A stretch of 43,724 nucleotides of DNA, taken from IMG/VR virus record IMGVR_UViG_3300032303_002529, positions 1-43,724 of that record; one strand, given 5' to 3'. How positions within the stretch are numbered: the stretch's first letter is position 1; every line of letters begins with the position of its first letter. This document shows, one piece after another, positions 548 through 22,233 of the stretch. Source of the DNA: a virus (lineage: Duplodnaviria > Caudoviricetes). The notes below the pieces were generated by a model. The model worked only from the letters and a program-made list of their open reading frames with translations. It was not told where the DNA came from and searched no databases. The position numbers and the translations under genes are program-made.

Positions 548-946
548 TTATTTTATTAAATTGGCAATTAATCTACTCTTTTCAACCATTGTCAGTTCCT
601 TGTTTTCAAATAACTTCAGGGTCTGATACACCTTAAACTCGTTTTCGTTAAATTCAGTTGAGTTAGTTTCTTCCATCCATTCAATTTTGACACCAATTTC
701 TTTCATTTGATTTTCCTTTTCAGTATACTCATCACGGAGTTCTTCAATAGAAACTTTGTAGTCACTCATTTCCCATTCATACACCCATCCGGCTCCGGTG
801 CCATTATCAAAACTAATAACCCAAGCTTTATGTATTTCATTATAAGGACCCGTAATAGTGAATCCAATAGAACTTGTAAGATTTGGGTTGCCCGACTTTC
901 GTTTACCCTTAGGCGTTGGTTGTAATTTTACTTTTTTTCCTACCAT
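548..946 (-). CDS. hypothetical protein (start probably 946 MVGKKV or 1000 MKKLLY, not 1090)
   Basis: The track start lies inside the tRNA-like element. An A-rich leader precedes the ATG at 946. Confidence 0.7.
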   Translation of the reverse strand: MVGKKVKLQPTPKGKRKSGNPNLTSSIGFTITGPYNEIHKAWVISFDNGTGAGWVYEWEMSDYKVSIEELRDEYTEKENQMKEIGVKIEWMEETNSTEFNENEFKVYQTLKLFENKELTMVEKSRLIANLIK

Positions 947-1010
947 AGTTTTTATTTTTTGTTTTTTACAATTAAAGATTTTATATAGAAGTTTTTTCAT
1001 AAGTTTTTTG

Positions 1011-1140
1011 TAGCCAGTACAGGATTTGAACCTGTGATAGTATCCATCAGCACATTGGTTAAAGCAGATACTCCGTTGTTTGAGGTTCATGGCAGAACCT
1101 ATTCCAATGTTTCGGTGCGTGTACCTCTCGCCACCTGACT
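1011..1140 (-). ncRNA. tRNA-like RNA with greatly enlarged anticodon/variable region (anticodon not assignable)
   Basis: Acceptor AGUCAGG/ACUGGCU (6 of 7 pairs), D arm GCG-AGAGGUACA-CGC, canonical T arm ACAGG-UUCAAAU-CCUGU, discriminator A, no encoded CCA; ~80 nt between D and T arms. Confidence 0.7.
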
Positions 1141-1146
1141 ATATTT

Positions 1147-1620
1147 TTAGTTTTGGACGAACGCCTTGTCCGCCCAAGTTTTAGCACCCATTCTACCCCA
1201 CAACTCCATATCACACATATCAGGAAATGATTGTCTCATATCACCTACAGTCAACACATCCAAAAATCCTTTATCAATAGAATACCATTTGCCACCTTTG
1301 GTTGTGAATACATTCATCCAAGTAATTTTTCCGTTATCATAGGTGTGTTTCACTTGAATGTTAACCAAAGAATTTTTCTTGAATCCTGAAATAACTTCTT
1401 TCGGTGTTGTAGTCCAATCAGAGATATTGATGAACCCTGCCTGACATTTAGCAGCCACACGGAACTCATATTGTTTATCTTCTTTAAGGTGATTAGACAC
1501 CATAATACGACAAGGTTTTCCTTTAACCATTGTCATATAATTTCCGTAGAATACGTCGCCAGCCATTGTGCCGGTTGTAAGGTTAATTACTGTTGTTGTT
1601 GGGGTGGTGGTAGTAGTCAT
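1147..1620 (-). CDS. hypothetical protein (early/accessory)
   Basis: 157-aa ORF directly downstream of a Bacteroidota-type promoter; starts MTTTTT. Confidence 0.8.
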   Translation of the reverse strand: MTTTTTPTTTVINLTTGTMAGDVFYGNYMTMVKGKPCRIMVSNHLKEDKQYEFRVAAKCQAGFINISDWTTTPKEVISGFKKNSLVNIQVKHTYDNGKITWMNVFTTKGGKWYSIDKGFLDVLTVGDMRQSFPDMCDMELWGRMGAKTWADKAFVQN

Positions 1621-1691
1621 TATTTGTTTGTTTTAGAATGTAAAGATAAGGGGTTATTTTGGTTCTGCCAAAAGTTTTTTTAATTTTTTTA
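1607..1691 (-). repeat. 85-bp direct repeat copy 1 (gene end + promoter + leader + MTTTT start)
   Basis: 77/85 identical to 1997-2081 by manual comparison. Confidence 0.9.
1641..1672 (-). promoter_or_regulatory. Bacteroidota-type primary-sigma promoter
   Basis: TTTG-N20-TATCTTTA; the established consensus is TTTG(-33)...TAnnTTTG(-7). Confidence 0.75.
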
Positions 1692-2010
1692 CACGATTTT
1701 GAAATGTAACATTATAGAAATATTCAAAAGATTTTTCCTTGAATTTGAATTTAATCTCAGTCCCTGATGATATTTTCTTATATGCAGCACCCCAATTCAT
1801 ACCATCATCCACCATATCAACCACGTTAATACTCACATAAGATTTAAGAACACCGCTAATATAAACTGAAATTTTTGTTTCAGGATTATATAAACTTCTA
1901 CTATAATCTATCCCTCTTGGGTCTTCAATAAAACCTTTTTTTCTAAACTCGTTCTGTAAAGAATTTATCATTTCTACGTTAGTCATAAGTGATGTTGTGG
2001 TAGTAGTCAT
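1654..2010 (-). CDS. hypothetical protein (early/accessory)
   Basis: 118-aa ORF bracketed by the two 85-bp repeats. Confidence 0.8.
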   Translation of the reverse strand: MTTTTTSLMTNVEMINSLQNEFRKKGFIEDPRGIDYSRSLYNPETKISVYISGVLKSYVSINVVDMVDDGMNWGAAYKKISSGTEIKFKFKEKSFEYFYNVTFQNRVKKLKKLLAEPK

Positions 2011-2945: not shown

Positions 2946-4775
2946 TTATTTAAAAAATGGTGGAATTTTTGTTATTGTTCCGTTACTATCGATTTGAAAT
3001 GCAGTTTTTCCGTTTTGAACTCTAATAAGAGAACCTTTTTCCATCCCCAAAATTACAAATTTTTCTTTAGATAATCCACAATTTACAAAATCAAATAATC
3101 CTGCAGGTTGTGTCGCCACTCTTGGAGGTAATTCATTTACAATCACACCAGGAAAATAACAATCTTTAAATAAGAATGGTCCTCCACCCGGTAGTGTATG
3201 TTTTGTTATATATAAACTATCAGAACTTTTACTATTGATGATATGTGCGTTATATCCCCACTCATCAGATATTACATTAACTGAACCTGATGGATTGGCG
3301 TGAATAAATACACCATACTTATTTCCAAACAAACTTAAATCTGTGTATTTGTAAGCATTTACATAAGCCCCGTGTTCCAAACCATATAACCCATTATTAT
3401 AAATGGTAAATCCTTTAACTATATGACTATGTGAATCGTTCTGCCAAGTAAAAATACCATCACATCTATTGTTATGAGATATATTACTATCTAATATCCA
3501 AACATTATCTGTGAAATTTGACGCTTCAGGCCACAAAAATCCTGAAGCAGAACCACTACCATAATTACCAACCGCAATACATCTTTTTGCTGTGTTATCT
3601 CTACCTGAACCCAAATAGAAACCTGTTAATCTATAACCTCTAAATGGTGGGTCGCATTTAGTCATCGCAGCAACACAACCTGTGTATGTTGTATTGTGAC
3701 TATTGTTTGTTGTATCTTTATCACTTGTTGGAAAGTCCCACCAATAAGCCTCCTCAAATGTGTTATAACTTATGCAGTTCTCAAATAAAACTCCGTGAGA
3801 TGCATGAGGAACATACGCGTGTGAACCACAATCACTAACCACAACATTTTTAACATAAGAACCTGTGGTTGCATATCCGTTCATATGTAGGTGAAGTGCG
3901 TATCTACCCGTAACCTTTGTTGTATAACCAGAACCATCTGGTTTTCTCGGTCCCATATATCTTATCTGCACATTTTTCATAGTGAAAGGCGTATTAACCA
4001 TTCCAATATTAATATGACTTCTACCTGTTGGTGTCCCCTCAATTCTAACATTTCTTGTTAGGTTTAATACCTCCGAAGTTAAATAAACTTTTTTGAATGG
4101 ATTATAAACTCTTGGGTGGTTATATATAATTGGACTATCAAGAGTCACGACATTACTTACAACACTAACAATTTTTCTTGTATCAAAACCATTATAAAAA
4201 TTTGGTTGTTTATTATCTTCAGTTGGAGTAATTGCAATAACATCTCCCGCTTTCCAATTTGCAGGTGCCCTATTTAATACTATTTGATTTGAGCCTTTTA
4301 ACACAGAGTCCTTCAAATAGACATATGGAGTTTTATCATTTCCAAGTAGTGATACCGTACCACTATTTCTAACCCAAAGCCCAACATCCGTTCTAAATAT
4401 ATCCATACCTCCACCAACAAATTTACTCTCATCAACATTTTTAAAAACTATTGTATGAATATTACTCATTAGTAATGGGGACATAATAAGTTTTCCAAAC
4501 ACATTTATATTTTCGGTTGAATAAAGTGTAATTGACCTACTTTTTAAAAACTGAAGAGCCCCTGTCTTCATAACCTTTAACCCACCAACTTCTACGGTTG
4601 TATCAAGGGTTAAAACGTGTCCTGAATTTACGGTAATTGCAGCACCCGTAACAGGAACTTTCTTACCAACCCATACACTTTTATCAGTCCATTTTCCGCT
4701 TTTAATTGTTTGTGCAGTTTGAGCACTCAAAATTTGGGTAATAAATAACATACCCAATAACATAATCTTTTTCAT
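2946..4775 (-). CDS. secreted G8-domain / right-handed beta-helix protein (TMEM2/CEMIP/fibrocystin-like architecture)
   Basis: Sec-type signal MKKIMLLGMLFITQILSA|Q. G8-type start SGKWTDKSVWVGKKVP, then NWKAGDVIAITPT, EVLNLTRNVRIEG, GRYALHLH and PbH1-like repeats. Confidence 0.75.
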   Translation of the reverse strand: MKKIMLLGMLFITQILSAQTAQTIKSGKWTDKSVWVGKKVPVTGAAITVNSGHVLTLDTTVEVGGLKVMKTGALQFLKSRSITLYSTENINVFGKLIMSPLLMSNIHTIVFKNVDESKFVGGGMDIFRTDVGLWVRNSGTVSLLGNDKTPYVYLKDSVLKGSNQIVLNRAPANWKAGDVIAITPTEDNKQPNFYNGFDTRKIVSVVSNVVTLDSPIIYNHPRVYNPFKKVYLTSEVLNLTRNVRIEGTPTGRSHINIGMVNTPFTMKNVQIRYMGPRKPDGSGYTTKVTGRYALHLHMNGYATTGSYVKNVVVSDCGSHAYVPHASHGVLFENCISYNTFEEAYWWDFPTSDKDTTNNSHNTTYTGCVAAMTKCDPPFRGYRLTGFYLGSGRDNTAKRCIAVGNYGSGSASGFLWPEASNFTDNVWILDSNISHNNRCDGIFTWQNDSHSHIVKGFTIYNNGLYGLEHGAYVNAYKYTDLSLFGNKYGVFIHANPSGSVNVISDEWGYNAHIINSKSSDSLYITKHTLPGGGPFLFKDCYFPGVIVNELPPRVATQPAGLFDFVNCGLSKEKFVILGMEKGSLIRVQNGKTAFQIDSNGTITKIPPFFK

Positions 4776-15265: not shown

Positions 15266-18200
15266 TTATGGTTCAACTCCCCCATCTGTTATATTCCAAC
15301 CGTATCCTGTTGGTGTTGCACCTGTTAACAAATCTTTACCAGCTTGTCCGTCTGCAGTATATTTTGCGGTATAGAATGATATTGTTCTTCCCGTTTGTAC
15401 TGTTTTACCTCCTGATGTCCATCCTGTGTATATATCTGTTAGATTAGTTGCTGATAACGTTGATGGTGTTTTACCATACATAAAATTTGTAAAATTAGTA
15501 ACTGCAGAAACATTCCAATTACCAATTGGTTGATTAAATTGATTGGCTCCTGGTACCCCATAGAACATATTAATCATATTAGAAACCTTAGATGTATTCC
15601 ATCCACTTAAAGGTTGGTTAAATAATGGTGCCTCTTGGAACATAGAAGCCATAGAAAGAACATTTGATGTATTCCAACTTCCAATTGGCTGATTAAATTT
15701 AAGTGCCCGATAAAACATTACTGACATATTTGTAACCGCACTTGTAGTCCATCCTGAAATTGAAGTTGAACCCGAATTATCAAATTTGGCGGTATTTTGG
15801 AACATAGCAGTTGTTGCGGTAACACTTCCCAAATCCCAATTTCCTAAATCTTGGTCAAAATTATCCGCATTATCAAACATACTTGACATATCAGTAACCT
15901 CCGAAGTAATCCAACTATTTAATGGTTGATTGAATACCGAGCTGGCAAACATATTTGTCATTGTAGTCACACTTGATACATCCCAATTATCTATTGGTTG
16001 GTTAAATGATGTCGTTCCATAGAACATATATGACATATCAGTAACCGCGCTTGTTGTCCATCCACTAATATCAGGATTACCTCCATTATTAAATGGTGTA
16101 CTAAGGAACATACGATTCATAGTTGTTGCGGACGAAACATTCCAATTACTAATATCTTGGTCAAATTTAGAATTTGCAAACAAATACGACATATCAAGAA
16201 CCTTTCTTGTATCCCAACTTGACATACTTGGTGTACCTGAGAATTTAGTTGCGTTATAGAACATTTGTGCCATAGTTGTTACTCCCGATACATTCCAACT
16301 ACCAACATCTTGTGTAAAGTTTGTCGAGCCATTAAATGTTGCGCCCATATAAAGAACATTTTTAGTGTCCCAACTTCCTATTGGTTGATTAAATGCAGTA
16401 TTTGCTTGGAACATACTATTCATATTCTGAAGTGATGTTATTTTCCAATTATTAATATTTGGATTTCCCCCATTATTAAATGGACAGTTAGCGAACATAC
16501 TATCTGTTCTTCTAACATTTGCAAGTGTAGATACATCAGGAGATATTCTCTCCCAATTACTTATATCTTGATTAAACTTACTTCCATTAAACATATTTCT
16601 CATACCACTATATGTTCCGGTTGCAGTAACGTTGGAAACACACCATCCGCTTATTTGTTGGTTAAAGGAACTTGCGGCGTAGAACATATGACCCATATCA
16701 GTATTTGCAGACATACTCCAACTACTTAATCCATCTCCTGAACCATCACCAGATGCCAATCCATTATTAAACAAATAAGCCTGTGAAAATGAATAATTTG
16801 ACGCACCAATTTTTTTCATATCAGACAAATAACCATATTCATTTGGTGTATCCCTTTCCCATCCTGTAATATTTCTATTGAATTTTTGTGCGTTATAGAA
16901 CATATAACCAATCGTGGTGTTTGCAGACATAGTCCAACCACTAATACTATTACTTCCTCCATTATCAAATGCCAACGCTGTGTTAAACATAGCACCTGTA
17001 TTTCCAACTTTATGAGTATCCCAATTACCAATATTTTTATCAAATTTATAAGCATTATTAAACATATTACCCATATATGTTACCGCACTTGTTGTCCATC
17101 CGCTTAAATCGTCATTGAAATTTGTGGCAAGCATAAATGTATTACCCATATTTTGTACATTGGATGTATCCCACTCATTAACTCTATTAATTGTTGTTAA
17201 TGAAGTACATAGATAGAATGCATTAAATAATGTTGTAGTATTAGTTAAGTCTAAAACATCGGTTACACCAGTCAAAACTAAATTTCTACAAGTATCAAAA
17301 TAATATCCTTGAGTTCCTAATCTTAATGGACCCCACTTATTAACTTCTAAAATTTTATATTTTTCAGCTGCATTACGACTATCAGAAATACTTGCACCCG
17401 CACTAACATCATATTGAATACCACTCAAATTACCTGGGTCGGCATAAATATTAATTGTGTAAATTCCAGGTGTTGAGTATTGGTGAGTTCTATTTGTTGC
17501 ACTCCAAGATGATATATAATCTAACGATGAGCCATCTCCCCAATCAACTAAACAACTATAGTTTGTACCAGCACCACTTATAAATGGTAATGTAATTTCA
17601 TCAAATGCAGAACTACTTGTTGGAGTTACTGAACTTAAAGCCAATCCAGTCATTTCAACATCAGCAACACCAAATACATTATTGGTTCCACCCGTTGTTA
17701 TAATATCATATTTGTAACTAACATATGAATTAACAATAACAGGTAATGGGAAGGCATTTTGAATTGATTGTCTTATTTGTTCTGAAGTTCTTTCAGCCGC
17801 AGTTGAAATAACCGTTGTCGGAGTACCATTTAAAGTTATGGTTAACCCAGATATATTTATTTTTCCTGTCGCTCTATTATTACCGGCAAATTGTACTAAA
17901 TCAAATATATAGTTCGTATTTCTTGTATCAAATCTACCTGTGAAATTATCTAAAGGTCTAGTCGGTGTTGGAGTCGGAGTGGTTGTATTAGTAGGAGTTT
18001 GTGTTGGAGTTTCGGTATTAGTTGGTGTTGGAGTTTTAGTCGGAGTTTTTGTATTAGTAGGTGTATTAGTAGGTGTTTTTGTATTAGTAGGTGTATTAGT
18101 AGGTGTTTGAGTTGGTGTTTTTGTATTAGTAGGTGTATTAGTAGGTGTTTGAGTTGGTGTTGGGGTAACCGCTTCTTTTGACGGTGTTGGTGTATTAGTC

Positions 18201-19600
18201 TGTGTCGGTGTATTAGTAGGTGTATTAGTAGGTGTTTGTGTATTAGTCGTTGTATTAGAAGGTGTATTTGTTGGTGTTTGTGTTGACGTTTGAGTTGGTG
18301 TTGGACTTGGCAATGGTAAACAATTTTCACACTTACTAAATAAAGAATAAACCAAATTAATAGTTGAATCGGGACTTAAAGTTGAGTCGTCTCTAATATA
18401 TTGTACGCAGCTCCATCCTGTTCCGTTTGGTGATGTTATATTAGCATTAAATACTGTTCCCGGAACCAATTGAACCGAATTGTAAAGTATTGGACCAGAA
18501 ACATAATAATATGTGTTTACCGTTCCGCATACCAATAAAACTTTAACTGTAGAACAATCAAATGGTGGGTCAATTATTGTAAATGTTGCCTTACCTAAAA
18601 TCTCCAAAATATTTGTTGGTGTTAATGTTGGGGTTGCGGTTACAGATGGAGTAGGTGTTGGTGATGAATAAAATATTGAAAAATTTAAACCCAAACTATA
18701 AACAGGACTTGCAGATGGTGTTGGGGGTATTGGTGAATTTGTAAAATTAAAGTCGATTACCGCACAATCAGTAGATACTGTAGGTGTTACGGGTGGAACG
18801 TATGCAACATCAAAATAGGCATTAAAATCAATTGTAAAATTACCAACAGGTGTTGGTGTTGGTGTGGGGCAAGGTCCGAAATCAAATGAATTTGACGCAA
18901 AATCAGGACAATCTGTAGTACAAGGTGTTTTACCTTCAAGTAAACAAATTCCACCTAAAGTATTACTTAAACACCATCTATCTCCCGTATGATAAATTGT
19001 TCCTCCTGAAATACCATCACCCGTAAAATATGCCTTACTACTGTAAGTTCCTGCAGATAAAAAATTGCCGCTATAACCAGACAATGTTGGATAAGTTGTA
19101 CCAAAGCAAAATTCAATATAACTACAAGAAGGACAAAGTCCGTCATTACAATCAGAAACTAGTGTAAAAATTACTCCCGCACTATCAAAAACCTCACCTA
19201 TCCCATCATCAGTTATTATTGTTGCACAACCATCAAAAAAAGGTGAACCGGAAATATAATACGTATTGTCAACTGTTGATGGTATGCTTGTTCCTACAAA
19301 TCTAAAAGTATTATCACTATTACAATCTTTAAATTTTGTGATATATGAAAAACAAATTCCTGTGGAAATAAGTATGCCTAAAGAATTAACTTCATAACAA
19401 GTGTCTCCTCCTTCCTGTATATCAGAATAATACCCTTGGTTTCCAAGTACGGAACATCCTGGGTCTTGATATATTAAACCACCAATTACAAAATCGGTAT
19501 TATCGGAATAATAACCCTCCTTATCAACGGACGAGCATGCATCATAACAACTAGTAGCACTATATGTTAATTTCCTTGGGAGTGAGTAGCATCCTGGCAT
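15266..19600 (-). CDS. large adhesin-like protein: Cys modules, PT linker, PKD domain, DUF285/BspA-type repeats
   Basis: [18 protein letters not shown] (PKD), then many W[DN]xSxVTxMxxMF repeats and a typical GWNITDGG C-terminal cap. Confidence 0.85.
15470..17200 (-). repeat. DUF285/BspA-like ~25-30 aa repeat array
   Basis: Repeated [16 protein letters not shown] units; SGWTTSAVT occurs three times. Confidence 0.85.
17960..18310 (-). repeat. Pro/Thr (TPTN/TPTQ) linker with exact nucleotide tandem repeats
   Basis: 30-bp unit at 18046, 18076 and 18118; exact 42-bp tandem at 18076-18117/18118-18159. Confidence 0.9.
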
Positions 19601-19893: not shown

Positions 19894-20101
19894 TCTTAAA
19901 CGTTTCATATCCATTGGCACCACTCATTATAACCATCACCTGAGGTGCGGAATCAAATAAAGAAGGAGGATATTCATAAACAGTTGGGGGTGTTGAGCCC
20001 GTTAGTTGTCCCAAATAATATTTATTATTACCATAATAATCGGCAATGTATACATCAGTGGGTGTGTATCCTGTAAAATATGTTATTTCTAATCTCGTCA
20101 T
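19874..20101 (-). CDS. stand-alone ~70-aa beta module protein
   Basis: Probable start MTRLEI (ATGA overlap); paralog of 14240..14458. Confidence 0.65.
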   Translation of the reverse strand: MTRLEITYFTGYTPTDVYIADYYGNNKYYLGQLTGSTPPTVYEYPPSLFDSAPQVMVIMSGANGYETFKIIDASL

Positions 20102-22233
20102 CCTGTACAATAAATATCATAATCAATTGCCAAATAAACTTTTATATCAAGTTGTGGAACTAAATCTTGTCTATTAACGTCACTTAAAATTATAATCTTA
20201 TTATCAATCTCATCTATTATAACCTTACCAACACCAATTGAACTTGATAACAAATTTTGTATTGAATCATAAAATAAATTTTCAGGTGGAGTATCAAGTA
20301 ATGAGTATGCGGTGTAGAAAGTTTCCGTAACTTCTGGATAAAAAGCTCCGACTTTAACTTTTGTTGTAAATGTTGCAGATGATAAGTTACATCCCGTCTG
20401 TCCTGATGTTATATCTTGGAAACCTTCATTTAACATTTTTGATAAACTATATTTTGTGTTTGTTACTAATTCAAAAGTTTGTTCTCCAACAGTATAAGAC
20501 TGATAAGAATCGAAAGAAGTACTTCCGTTAATAGTTGTCGTTCTTTTTAAAGATGAACCATTTGAATCAATGACCGCCAAGCTATACGTTCCCGCAGTTA
20601 ACCCTGTAACCTTTATTGTTTGTGGGTTACCTACTACGTTGTCCGACCAATTAAAACTGAATGGTGGTGTACCTGAAGACACCATAGCGGTTATTGTGCC
20701 TCCACTATTTGAACCTGCGGATGTAGATACCAATAAGAAATCTACAACAGGAACATATCCAACATTAACATATGTGTTTTGTTTACATCCAATCGAATCC
20801 ACCACAACCACTTCGTGTTGTCCTGAAGATAAATCATAAAATGTAACCGCAGATAAAGATGTGTTAAAATAATTTAAATTACCATCTAATGAATATGTAA
20901 ATGGTTCTGTACCTCCAGTTGTTTTTGTTACTGTTACCGAGCCGTTATTTTGTCCATAAGTTGCGGATACAGAATCTGCTGATATTGAAAATGATATCTC
21001 ATTATAAATTGTATAATTATTTGAATATGTACATCCTGACGAATCTACAACAGATAAATTATAAGTTCCTGCGGATAAGTTTGAAAATAAATTTTGTTGT
21101 ATGTTAGTATTAACTGTTTTATTGCTTGAGTCAGGATAAGTTAAAATATACTGATATGGTATGTTACCTCCTCGAACAGATACTGATATTGAACCCTCAG
21201 AAAAAGAACAATTTGTATTTTTTGTTTGGACATTGACCGCGGTCATTCCGTCCGGTGTATTTAAAACCGTACTAACACTTGTTTGACAAAATCCAGCATC
21301 CGTAACATTTATTGTATAGGGGCCTGCACCAATACTATTAAGTGTAAAACCACTTGCATAAGAAATTTCAACATATCCCGTTGATGCCGAATAATAATAC
21401 GGTGGTGTTCCTCCTGTTATTTGAATACTTAAAGAGCCATCATTTGATAAACAAGATGGTGGATTTGCAGTAATAATTCCAATGGTAACTACACCAACAG
21501 TTTCAACCGTTGCAGATTTAATTAAACTACACCCTAAAGAATCCGTAACATCAACACTATATTGCCCACTTGTTAATCCCGTTATATAGTTTTCTTCACC
21601 TCCATTACTCCATACATACTTATATGGCGGTGTACCTGTTAAACCTGTTACATATAATTTACCCGATGGTGAATATGTACAAGTTGCATTTGGTACATTA
21701 TAAAAACCAAAATAAAAACCATTTGAATCTTCAACAATAAATGTTTCGCTTTTTCCTGTGCATCCACCAATATCATTTGCTATTGCATAATATGTTCCTG
21801 CAGATAATCCTTGAAGAGTTATATATTCATAACTTGTTGTTGCGGATTGTACCAAACTATTATTGGTATCATACAAACTATATAATACAGTTGATAGTGG
21901 GGTGCTAGCGGATATTGTAACCACACCATTATCTAATCCACAAGTTGTTTTTTCAACACTAAGTATGTTAGCACATATTCCACTTGAAATACTAACATTA
22001 ACATAAGTCTCATTATTTGTTGGGGAAGCACTATCAGTAATTAAAACTACGTAAGTTCCAGCACTCATTGTTGCCCTTGTTGATGCACTTACCGAAGTAT
22101 CTGTTCCTAAATTTGGTGTGAGCCACTGAAAAGTATAAGGTTGTGTACCACCATAAGGTATTAGTTCCGCAGAACCAAGATTACTTGAGGTACAGTCACC
22201 TGTGAGATTTAATATGTAAGGAAATTGAGCCAT
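20098..22233 (-). CDS. SprB-repeat protein (virion-associated adhesin candidate)
   Basis: About 7 repeats of C...G.I....GGTxPY.Y.W......L.AG.Y.V.V.D..GC. Confidence 0.85.
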   Translation of the reverse strand: MAQFPYILNLTGDCTSSNLGSAELIPYGGTQPYTFQWLTPNLGTDTSVSASTRATMSAGTYVVLITDSASPTNNETYVNVSISSGICANILSVEKTTCGLDNGVVTISASTPLSTVLYSLYDTNNSLVQSATTSYEYITLQGLSAGTYYAIANDIGGCTGKSETFIVEDSNGFYFGFYNVPNATCTYSPSGKLYVTGLTGTPPYKYVWSNGGEENYITGLTSGQYSVDVTDSLGCSLIKSATVETVGVVTIGIITANPPSCLSNDGSLSIQITGGTPPYYYSASTGYVEISYASGFTLNSIGAGPYTINVTDAGFCQTSVSTVLNTPDGMTAVNVQTKNTNCSFSEGSISVSVRGGNIPYQYILTYPDSSNKTVNTNIQQNLFSNLSAGTYNLSVVDSSGCTYSNNYTIYNEISFSISADSVSATYGQNNGSVTVTKTTGGTEPFTYSLDGNLNYFNTSLSAVTFYDLSSGQHEVVVVDSIGCKQNTYVNVGYVPVVDFLLVSTSAGSNSGGTITAMVSSGTPPFSFNWSDNVVGNPQTIKVTGLTAGTYSLAVIDSNGSSLKRTTTINGSTSFDSYQSYTVGEQTFELVTNTKYSLSKMLNEGFQDITSGQTGCNLSSATFTTKVKVGAFYPEVTETFYTAYSLLDTPPENLFYDSIQNLLSSSIGVGKVIIDEIDNKIIILSDVNRQDLVPQLDIKVYLAIDYDIYCTG

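What the first reader, a model, noticed from the sequence alone, without database searches (positions are those of the whole stretch)
1011..1140. tRNA-shaped RNA whose anticodon/variable arms are replaced by ~80 nt of structured insert
Seen: acceptor stem, D arm and a perfect T arm (UUCAAAU loop), but 130 nt long. The insert contains hairpin AGGUUC-UGCCAU-GAACCU inside an extended CCG/CGG stem, and a second arm AGUAUC...GAUACU. A 7-nt complementarity, ACAUUGG/CCAAUGU, links the two arms and could form a pseudoknot or alternative fold. No canonical 7-nt anticodon loop, no CCA, and too short for tmRNA or a group I intron. Inference: a tRNA-mimic ncRNA that keeps the elbow/acceptor surface. It could act as a decoy for anticodon nucleases, an RNase P/Z processing signal in the early transcript, or a ribosome/synthetase ligand. 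The ORF track hides it by extending an ORF through it.
Basis: partly seen in the sequence, partly recalled or inferred. Interest (0 to 1): 0.8.

Follow-up and report, generated by a model that had tools for sequence, protein, structure and literature searches.

The report
Knotted RNA riding a tRNA frame
A large uncultured phage carries a 130-base gene shaped like the upper half of a tRNA but with the decoding arm replaced by a conserved RNA knot found in many other phages and mobile elements, and the tRNA frame likely serves to get the knot cut out and protected so that it can bind a still unknown host target.

Summary
Real and conserved. On the minus strand, 1140-1011 has a tRNA acceptor stem, leucine-type D arm and T arm, but no anticodon. 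The anticodon and variable arms are locked together by a 7-bp loop-loop helix. I found 47 distinct relatives in phages, a prophage-like contig and GC-rich contigs. All keep the knot through compensatory changes (7 of 7 pairs covary), plus a near-invariant AA / CUGC / GCUGAUGG core. No Rfam family covers the knot, and no cultured phage or paper was found. It is not a decoding or spliced tRNA, tmRNA or fluoride riboswitch, although it shares that riboswitch's GC...GCUGAUG stretch. The tRNA frame belongs to a very large phage family with swapped inserts, which this scan noted before on other DNA and which resembles T5 RNA1; this insert had no earlier look-alike. One RNA-library contig joins the two ends with an extra C, weakly suggesting a mature CCA-tailed RNA. 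Best reading (0.5): the frame gets the RNA processed and stabilised, and the knot binds a host factor in trans. Function is untested.

The parts
1011..1140 (-). whole tRNA-framed RNA gene (130 nt, position 1 to discriminator A73; U at -1 is 1141, C74 is 1010)
   Evidence: (121.7 bits with model R1, which was built with this sequence)
1134..1140 (-). acceptor stem, 5' strand
   Evidence: 7 of 7 pairs show two-sided changes in 36 aligned members; members were filtered for at least 5 of 7 pairs
1117..1131 (-). leucine-type D arm (3-bp GCG/CGC stem, 9-nt loop with GG)
   Evidence: 100% paired; second loop base covaries with the base before the T stem, G/C 36, A/U 5, mismatch 1 of 42
1113..1115 (-). 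stem a, 5' strand (stump of the anticodon stem)
   Evidence: 88% paired in 36, 100% in 18; absent in the 102-nt member L027
1111..1112 (-). invariant AA linker before the kissing strand
   Evidence: invariant columns; not demanded by the pattern
1104..1110 (-). kissing (pseudoknot) helix, 5' strand ACAUUGG
   Evidence: 7 of 7 pairs covary; at least 5 Watson-Crick pairs in 47 of 47 members, 21 different strand sequences
1076..1103 (-). variable insert holding the AGGUUC/GAACCU hairpin; not conserved
   Evidence: 2-76 nt across 47 members; alignment
1073..1075 (-). stem a, 3' strand CGG
1064..1072 (-). stem b 5' strand AGUAUC (variable-arm position) followed by conserved UGC
   Evidence: 5 of 6 pairs covary, 18 different versions; full pairing was a filter
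1052..1058 (-). kissing helix, 3' strand CCAAUGU, in the loop of stem b
1045..1051 (-). near-invariant core GCUGAUG (GC pairs with the GC of UGC; UGAU bulge; last G can pair with the U of UGC)
   Evidence: exact in 19 of 20 family loci from a scan that did not ask for it, one G-to-A change
1039..1044 (-). stem b, 3' strand GAUACU
1019..1035 (-). T arm
   Evidence: 3 of 5 pairs covary; Rfam tRNA fragment
1012..1018 (-). acceptor stem, 3' strand
1147..1620 (-). upstream ORF (157 aa, no family match); ends 6 nt before the RNA gene, so the two are likely co-transcribed
1604..1700 (-). promoter-like leader repeat, nearest likely promoter; second copy at 1994-2090
   Evidence: 97-nt direct repeat, 88% identical; -7-box-like TATCTTTA in both (consensus recalled)
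548..1000 (-). downstream ORF; in-frame ATGs at 1000 and 946 are the likely true starts, not the ATG at 1090 inside the RNA
   Evidence: no family match, no cultured-phage hit

Best explanation
This is a non-decoding RNA gene in which a tRNA frame carries a conserved pseudoknot domain; the frame likely lets host tRNA-processing enzymes cut it out and add CCA, and the knot likely acts in trans by binding and sequestering a still unknown, widely conserved host factor. Shown by sequence comparison: the frame, the loop-loop knot between the anticodon and variable arms, the near-invariant core, the dispensable insert, one copy per genome, and no fixed neighbour gene. Inferred from established tRNA processing (RNase P at the 5' end, RNase Z then CCA-adding enzyme; PMC10424219 passages): release from a polycistronic transcript as a stable RNA of about 133 nt. 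Weakly supported: CCA addition. Inferred and untested: that the core forms a binding pocket or surface, and that its target is a host protein or small ligand.
For: Structure of 33 pairs on 36 of the 42 members: 96.7% of cells paired, 24 pairs with two-sided changes, 0 of 500 shuffles as high, slid controls 31-42% paired; knot alone 99.7% paired in 18 members. Helix sequences drift freely while AA, CUGC and GCUGAUGG stay: shape selection on helices, sequence selection on the core. The same knot sits on a second, GC-rich frame with different D and T arms (L344, L381, L412). The leucine-type frame carries unrelated inserts elsewhere: 107 distinct cassettes, inserts 23-229 nt in 85 clusters, none with the core; about 15 in one genome region. 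One family copy in each of 4 genomes searched. 18 of 42 lie within 1 kb of a tRNA, two of them 4 nt away; others sit 2-10 nt behind a stop codon; next ORFs differ and mostly match no family. U at -1 in 37 of 42, C74 in 38 of 42 and no encoded CCA, as in the ordinary tRNAs of these phages (CCA encoded in 7 of 84); 2 of 5 carrier genomes encode a CCA-adding-type enzyme. One 161-nt contig in RNA run X2 joins the 3' end to the 5' end with one extra C, reading A73-C-C-A at the joint.
Against: No target is identified and nothing here measures binding. The core could be invariant only because it holds the fold together. The end-joined contig is single, at depth 2.2, from a relative whose DNA I have not seen; a C at -1 (4 of 42 members) or a tandem copy would give the same joint. 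The other RNA-run contigs (X4, X6, X7, X10) run on into flanks or end without a mark and do not show a discrete RNA. CUGC, GCUGAUGG, the T loop and stem b pairing were demanded by the main pattern and filter, so their invariance outside the main clade is by construction; the independent test covers the main clade only. A73 is kept in 38 of 42, which fits an acceptor-end role too. The frame has co-evolved with the knot (altered D loop and linker), so the two parts are not fully independent.
Confidence: 0.5

Rival explanations
1. Whole-molecule tRNA mimic: the working surface is the acceptor end and elbow, and the knot only makes a rigid, nuclease-proof substitute for the anticodon arm. The RNA would then bait or modulate proteins that read the top half of tRNA (LeuRS, EF-Tu, RelA/SpoT, toxins that modify the CCA end).
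For: Acceptor, D and T arms are all kept with covariation; A73 in 38 of 42; a Levitt-type D-loop/linker pair covaries in 41 of 42; E. coli LeuRS ignores the anticodon and variable arms (PMC9976931, passages).
Against: Acceptor-stem sequence varies at all 7 pairs; A15-U48 is replaced in 37 of 42 and U8 is A in 17 of 42; G005 carries about 15 other frames with a more typical leucine core, so a further top-half mimic would be redundant there; the second frame type differs in D and T arms but keeps the knot.
Confidence: 0.25
2. The knot is a new small ribozyme (self-cleaving or ligating) mounted in a tRNA frame.
For: Compact pseudoknot with covarying helices and a short invariant core, the usual signature of small ribozymes (general knowledge); HDV-like theta ribozymes occur next to phage tRNAs (recalled, not read).
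Against: No Rfam ribozyme match in the window or in 31 member and look-alike loci; hammerhead-like letters are not kept as such (the G before AA and the A-U pair covary as ordinary pairs); cleavage inside the knot would destroy an RNA whose whole frame is conserved; RNA-run contigs span the core.
Confidence: 0.08
3. A cis-acting element: a riboswitch for the next gene, or only a processing mark that cuts the early transcript.
For: Sits between genes, 6 nt after a stop and 10 nt before an ATG in the window; shares GC...GCUGAUG and a following 6-bp helix with the Rfam fluoride riboswitch consensus.
Against: Downstream ORFs differ and in several members the next feature is a tRNA; no terminator-like site on this strand; CrcB in 0 of 5 carrier genomes; RF01734 does not match the window and the knot model does not match a true fluoride riboswitch; a plain frame would suffice as a cut mark.
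Confidence: 0.08
4. An intron-containing tRNA (as proposed for Lak phages) or a decayed tRNA pseudogene.
For: Oversized phage tRNAs have been read as intron-bearing (10.1101/356790, passages); ARAGORN with intron search of 42 members.
Against: Those 11 calls give nine different amino acids at shifting positions and the window is not among them; 0 of 42 are called without the intron option; the insert pairs across both arms; covariation excludes decay.
Confidence: 0.03

Closest known systems
Phage T5 RNA1 and RNA2 (NC_005859 misc_RNA T5s03, T5s06, annotated 'tRNA-like stable RNA with unknown functions') and T4 species 1 RNA (rnaC, NC_000866 T4s001)
   Same: 120-145 nt RNAs in phage tRNA regions with a T arm and no usable anticodon; T5 RNA1 has a leucine-type D arm.
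   Different: None holds GCUGAUG or matches the knot model (best score in the T4 and T5 regions 9.8 bits, against 70 for the window). This family has a covarying knot and core shared across unrelated elements.
Phage leucine-tRNA frames with variable inserts
   Same: Same or derived acceptor, D and T arms; occur in the same arrays.
   Different: Those inserts are hypervariable (85 clusters among 107, largest 4). This insert is conserved, single-copy, has a remodelled D loop and linker, and also rides a second frame.
Class II tRNA-Leu (Rfam RF00005)
   Same: 3-bp D stem, long variable-arm helix, short linker to the T stem, A73; one member (L559/L588) even passes RF00005 at 38.4 bits.
   Different: No 5-bp anticodon stem with 7-nt loop; the two arms kiss; A15-U48 replaced in 37 of 42.
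Fluoride riboswitch (Rfam RF01734, crcB motif)
   Same: GC...GCUGAUG followed by a 6-bp pseudoknot-associated helix, and an A-rich linker after a short stem.
   Different: Strand order differs; the 5' GAUG segment is absent; no mutual model match; no CrcB, no expression platform.
tmRNA (Rfam RF00023)
   Same: tRNA top half joined to pseudoknotted RNA in place of the anticodon arm.
   Different: No coding domain, about 130 nt, has a D stem, U3.G70 rather than G3.U70 in the window; not called by ARAGORN or Rfam.

Membership tests
decoding tRNA (RF00005) | acceptor stem, D arm, T arm | tested here: met
   window acceptor has 6 of 7 pairs
decoding tRNA (RF00005) | 5-bp anticodon stem with 7-nt loop | tested here: not met
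   ARAGORN 0 of 42; loop is used in the kissing helix
decoding tRNA (RF00005) | mature 3' CCA end | tested here: inconclusive
   encoded in 0 of 42, but also in only 7 of 84 ordinary tRNAs of carrier phages; one RNA contig joint reads CCA
decoding tRNA (RF00005) | aminoacylation | not testable with these tools
   needs a charging assay
intron-containing tRNA | removal of a fixed segment restores one consistent anticodon | tested here: not met
   11 of 42 called with -i, nine amino acids, shifting positions; window not called
tRNA-Leu identity set (E. coli, PMC9976931) | discriminator A73 | tested here: met
   38 of 42, window included
tRNA-Leu identity set (E. coli, PMC9976931) | A15-U48 Levitt pair | tested here: not met
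   A/U in 5 of 42; G/C in 36, window included; my numbering of the D loop is inferred
tRNA-Leu identity set (E. coli, PMC9976931) | G18G19 and A20a in the D loop | tested here: inconclusive
   GG then UA in the window D loop; loop is one base short and varies among members
tmRNA (RF00023) | G3.U70, tag reading frame, model match | tested here: not met
fluoride riboswitch (RF01734) | covariance-model match | tested here: not met
   reciprocal test
fluoride riboswitch (RF01734) | GC...GCUGAUG before the 3' pseudoknot strand | tested here: met
   consensus line
fluoride riboswitch (RF01734) | 5' GAUG segment in the loop of the first stem, and strand order | tested here: not met
   the matching positions are variable paired bases of stems a and b
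fluoride riboswitch (RF01734) | upstream of fluoride-resistance genes | tested here: not met
   CrcB 0 of 5 genomes; neighbours
hammerhead ribozyme (features recalled) | invariant CUGANGA and GAAA around three stems | tested here: not met
   CUGAUGG; the G before AA is G, C or U and pairs in stem a; no Rfam match
T4/T5 tRNA-like stable RNAs (descriptive class) | oversized anticodon-less tRNA-like gene in phage tRNA regions | tested here: met
T4/T5 tRNA-like stable RNAs (descriptive class) | homology of the insert to T4 rnaC/rnaD or T5 RNA1/RNA2 | tested here: not met
T4/T5 tRNA-like stable RNAs (descriptive class) | accumulates as a discrete stable RNA in infection | tested here: inconclusive
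   only assembled contigs were available

The most novel reading that the evidence does not exclude
The knot is a natural aptamer, with a metal-lined pocket related to the 3' half of the fluoride riboswitch, that phages and other mobile elements mount on tRNA frames and express in trans as an RNA sponge for a small host molecule such as a nucleotide immune or stress signal. The hundreds of other frame inserts would then be a library of phage RNA effectors.
Probability: 0.15. Interest if true: 0.92.

Novelty: new variant of a known kind. Interest (0 to 1): 0.66.

Why it matters
Phages T4 and T5 have been annotated with tRNA-like stable RNAs of unknown function, and large uncultured phages carry such genes by the dozen, but their inserts are too variable to say what matters. 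This family gives a handle: a covariation-backed fold, about a dozen near-invariant bases, a natural 102-nt minimal version and two different frames. That makes 'what do phage tRNA-like RNAs do' testable with point mutants, probing and pull-downs. If the knot binds a small molecule or defence protein, it would be a new RNA-based way for phages to steer or disarm their hosts, and a natural counterpart of the engineered tRNA scaffold (recalled).

Tried and rejected
Single-sequence folding was uninformative: z = -1.41 on the RNA strand, -0.67 on the other. A 14.9-bit PreQ1 match over the T arm and trailer (gathering 39) was treated as chance; trailers are not conserved. Loose patterns gave mostly chance hits. 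No cultured phage or plasmid holds the element: window, L374, L004, L559, L412 against phages, L344 and L559 against plasmids; only T-arm fragments matched. A knot-only model found nothing in 151 genomes of one phylum and only the known member in 151 of another; only 31 candidates per genome were scored and the model misses the GC-rich sister members, so this is weak evidence. GTDB scan: 2 of 120 loci were members, from 52 of 64 parts scanned. Host not established: helicase hits are about 27% identical, bS21 is in 1 of 5 carrier genomes, a TAnnTTTG box lies within 60 nt upstream in 4 of 42 members (consensus recalled). Other GCUGAUG-bearing tRNA-like RNAs (L011, L019, L026, L037, L067, L090) did not fit the knot descriptor or model and were left out. 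A script with a faulty pattern was redone. Ten literature searches (listings only) showed no paper on this family; supplements were not searched, and large candidate-RNA tables (for example PMC8040213, listing only, or those of PMC7162821) could hold it.

Full report
Setting. The window is a 43.7-kb piece of an AT-rich phage genome (primase, DnaB helicase, ribonucleotide reductase, baseplate genes), estimated 15% complete, so probably a large phage. The element reads on the minus strand from 1140 to 1011, 6 nt behind the stop of ORF 1147-1620 and 10 nt before an ATG at 1000. ARAGORN and Rfam call nothing in the window; by E-value only the T arm resembles tRNA. On its own the fold is not significant, and a 7-bp helix arises in 10% of shuffled inserts.

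Relatives. An exact 17-base 5' pattern gave 10 viral loci, 9 of them true relatives. A pattern on the 3' core and T loop gave 30 viral loci (28 members), 119 metagenome loci (about 33 members or fragments; 20 of 64 parts scanned) and 120 GTDB loci (2 members; 52 of 64 parts). Parsing gave 43 distinct full-length sequences; I set one (L344) apart as a sister type, leaving 42. Adding L331, L572 and the sister members L344, L381, L412 makes 47; two truncated loci and one near-duplicate were left out. Lengths in the 42 run from 102 to 175 nt. Carriers include complete or near-complete phage records of 149-289 kb, a MAG contig with integrase, replication initiator and ParA (L559), a contig with a tail-fibre gene (L331) and a short MAG contig with a toxin-antitoxin gene (L453). 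No cultured phage or plasmid matched.

Structure. All members read: acceptor, D arm, short stem a, AA, strand x, variable insert, stem a closing strand, stem b, UGC, short loop, strand x', GCUGAUG, stem b closing strand, 2-3 nt, T arm, acceptor. On 36 of the 42 (six near-duplicates left out) a 33-pair structure is 96.7% paired, 24 pairs show two-sided changes, and 0 of 500 shuffles reach any of the five measures; slid controls give 31-42%. The x/x' helix has two-sided changes at 7 of 7 pairs; on 18 diverse members the knot domain is 99.7% paired. All 47 keep at least 5 Watson-Crick pairs there, with 21 different x strands, and x of one type fits x' of another in only 20 of 420 combinations. 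Stems a, b and x covary in the same molecules, so this is a loop-loop pseudoknot between the anticodon-position arm and the variable-position arm rather than two alternative folds. Caveats: the shuffle control ignores relatedness; stem b, the T stem and part of the acceptor were filters; CUGC and GCUGAUGG were in the pattern. Helix x, stem a, AA and the D arm were not filters. A scan that left the core free returned 22 loci, 20 members, 19 with the exact core and one with a single G-to-A change, within the main clade only.

The frame. The second D-loop base and the base before the T stem covary (G/C 36, A/U 5, one mismatch), position 8 is U in 25 and A in 17, the discriminator is A in 38, C follows in 38, CCA is encoded in none, and -1 is U in 37. 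Ordinary tRNAs of carrier phages encode CCA in 7 of 84 cases, so its absence is normal; 2 of 5 carrier genomes have a CCA-adding-type enzyme. ARAGORN of 42 as tRNA, and 11 of 42 with intron search, with nine different amino acids, which rejects the intron reading proposed for oversized Lak tRNAs (10.1101/356790, passages). E. coli leucine identity rests on A73, A15-U48, G18G19 and A20a and tolerates loss of the anticodon and variable arms (PMC9976931, passages); the main clade, window included, lacks A15-U48 by my numbering, so charging is doubtful there and possible in 5 divergent members.

One insert among many. A model of the whole RNA also scored 35-55 bits on neighbours that share the frame but not the knot. 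The exact 5' half of that frame occurs in an estimated 810 IMG/VR stretches. Of 127 sampled matches, 118 had the 3' half, giving 107 distinct cassettes with inserts of 23-229 nt (90 longer than 42 nt) in 85 clusters, none with the core. One genome region holds about 15 such cassettes, yet each of four genomes has exactly one copy of the knot family. Conversely the knot, with AA, stems a, b, x and the core, sits on a different GC-rich frame in L344, L381 and L412/L413. Earlier notes of this scan describe the leucine-type frame family on other DNA; I had noted it, and took the T5 RNA1 and Lak leads from those notes. Sequence and place look-ups found no earlier look-alike of this insert.

Context and expression. 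18 of 42 members lie within 1 kb of an ARAGORN tRNA, two only 4 nt away; many others follow a stop codon by 2-10 nt; flanks were short for several; downstream ORFs differ. This fits a trans-acting RNA cut from a longer transcript, not a switch for a given gene. In the window a 97-nt leader repeat at 1604-1700 and 1994-2090 is the nearest promoter-like feature. Contigs of relatives cover the element in RNA runs X2, X4, X6, X7 and X10 (five studies), mostly running into flanks. One X2 contig (161 nt, depth 2.2) joins position 1010 to the 5' end with one extra C, so the joint reads A73-C-C-A; this is what a CCA-tailed mature RNA joined end to end would give, but a genomic C at -1 or a tandem copy would too. 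It is a hint, not proof.

Comparison. The closest known kind is the annotated tRNA-like stable RNAs of T5 (RNA1, 144 nt, leucine-type D arm; RNA2) and T4 rnaC; they lack the core and do not match the knot model. The Rfam fluoride consensus shares GC...GCUGAUG and a following 6-bp helix, and in the B. cereus switch the top pseudoknot pair is a wobble, with a long-range A40-U48 pair (PMC11077080, passages). But strand order differs, the 5' GAUG segment is missing, neither model finds the other and CrcB is absent from 5 of 5 genomes. It is a lead for how the bulge may fold, not membership. tmRNA and hammerhead features are not met. PMC7162821 (passages) reports many tRNAs and tmRNAs in huge phages and no such RNA in the passages shown; its supplements were not read. 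Ten literature searches listed nothing on this family.

Mechanism. Shown: a conserved knot with a near-invariant core on a tRNA frame, single-copy, without fixed neighbours. Inferred from standard tRNA maturation (PMC10424219, passages): RNase P and RNase Z release it and CCA is added. Inferred and untested: the knot binds a host factor conserved across distant bacteria and sequesters or modulates it (0.5). Rivals: top-half tRNA mimic (0.25), ribozyme (0.08), cis element (0.08), intron or pseudogene (0.03).

Verdict. A real, uncatalogued structured RNA family; a new variant of the phage tRNA-like stable RNAs, with unusually strong structural evidence and no known function. Interest 0.66.

Noticed in passing
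L716 (G005:C1:163000-182500), L719, L393, L572, L395; loci L594-L715: Arrays of leucine-type tRNA frames with unrelated 23-229 nt inserts, about 15 in one genome region; ARAGORN miscalls some as tRNAs (22 of 107 sampled).
   Followed up: partly
L344:1280-1403 +, L381:1986-2106 -, L412:286-409 -: Sister type: same knot on a GC-rich frame with a 5-bp D-like hairpin and a longer T stem; the frame looks selenocysteine-tRNA-like (recalled, not tested).
   Followed up: partly
window 1099-1088 (-) and L381:2016-2079 (-): The variable inserts of the window and of the distant sister member L381 share a 12-base stretch (GGUUCUGCCAUG); L559 has part of its complement. Unexplained, may be chance.
   Followed up: no
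L342:124-265 +, L359:896-1037 +: Members with a 30-nt hairpin inserted in the D loop and an acceptor that may extend to 8 bp.
   Followed up: no
L026:814-913 +, L041, L019:1421-1546 +, L011, L067, L088, L037, L090, L092: Other tRNA-like phage RNAs with GCUGAUG just before the T arm but different folds; no Rfam family beyond tRNA. The stretch may be a recurring motif.
   Followed up: partly
window 1604-1700 and 1994-2090: 97-nt direct repeat (88%) holding a promoter-like leader and the start of two ORFs that begin with a threonine run.
   Followed up: partly
L004:491-568, L008:1419-1496: A tRNA with CUA anticodon (ARAGORN 'Pyl', possibly an amber suppressor) lies 4 nt upstream of the family member.
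   Followed up: no
L305:664-3892; L374:2516-2831: One member lies directly upstream of a tRNA-His guanylyltransferase (Thg1) gene; another is 460 nt from a tmRNA gene.
   Followed up: no
window 15266-19600, 20098-22233, 2946-4775 (all -): Large phage proteins with DUF285 repeats, SprB repeats, and G8 plus CEMIP beta-helix domains.
   Followed up: no
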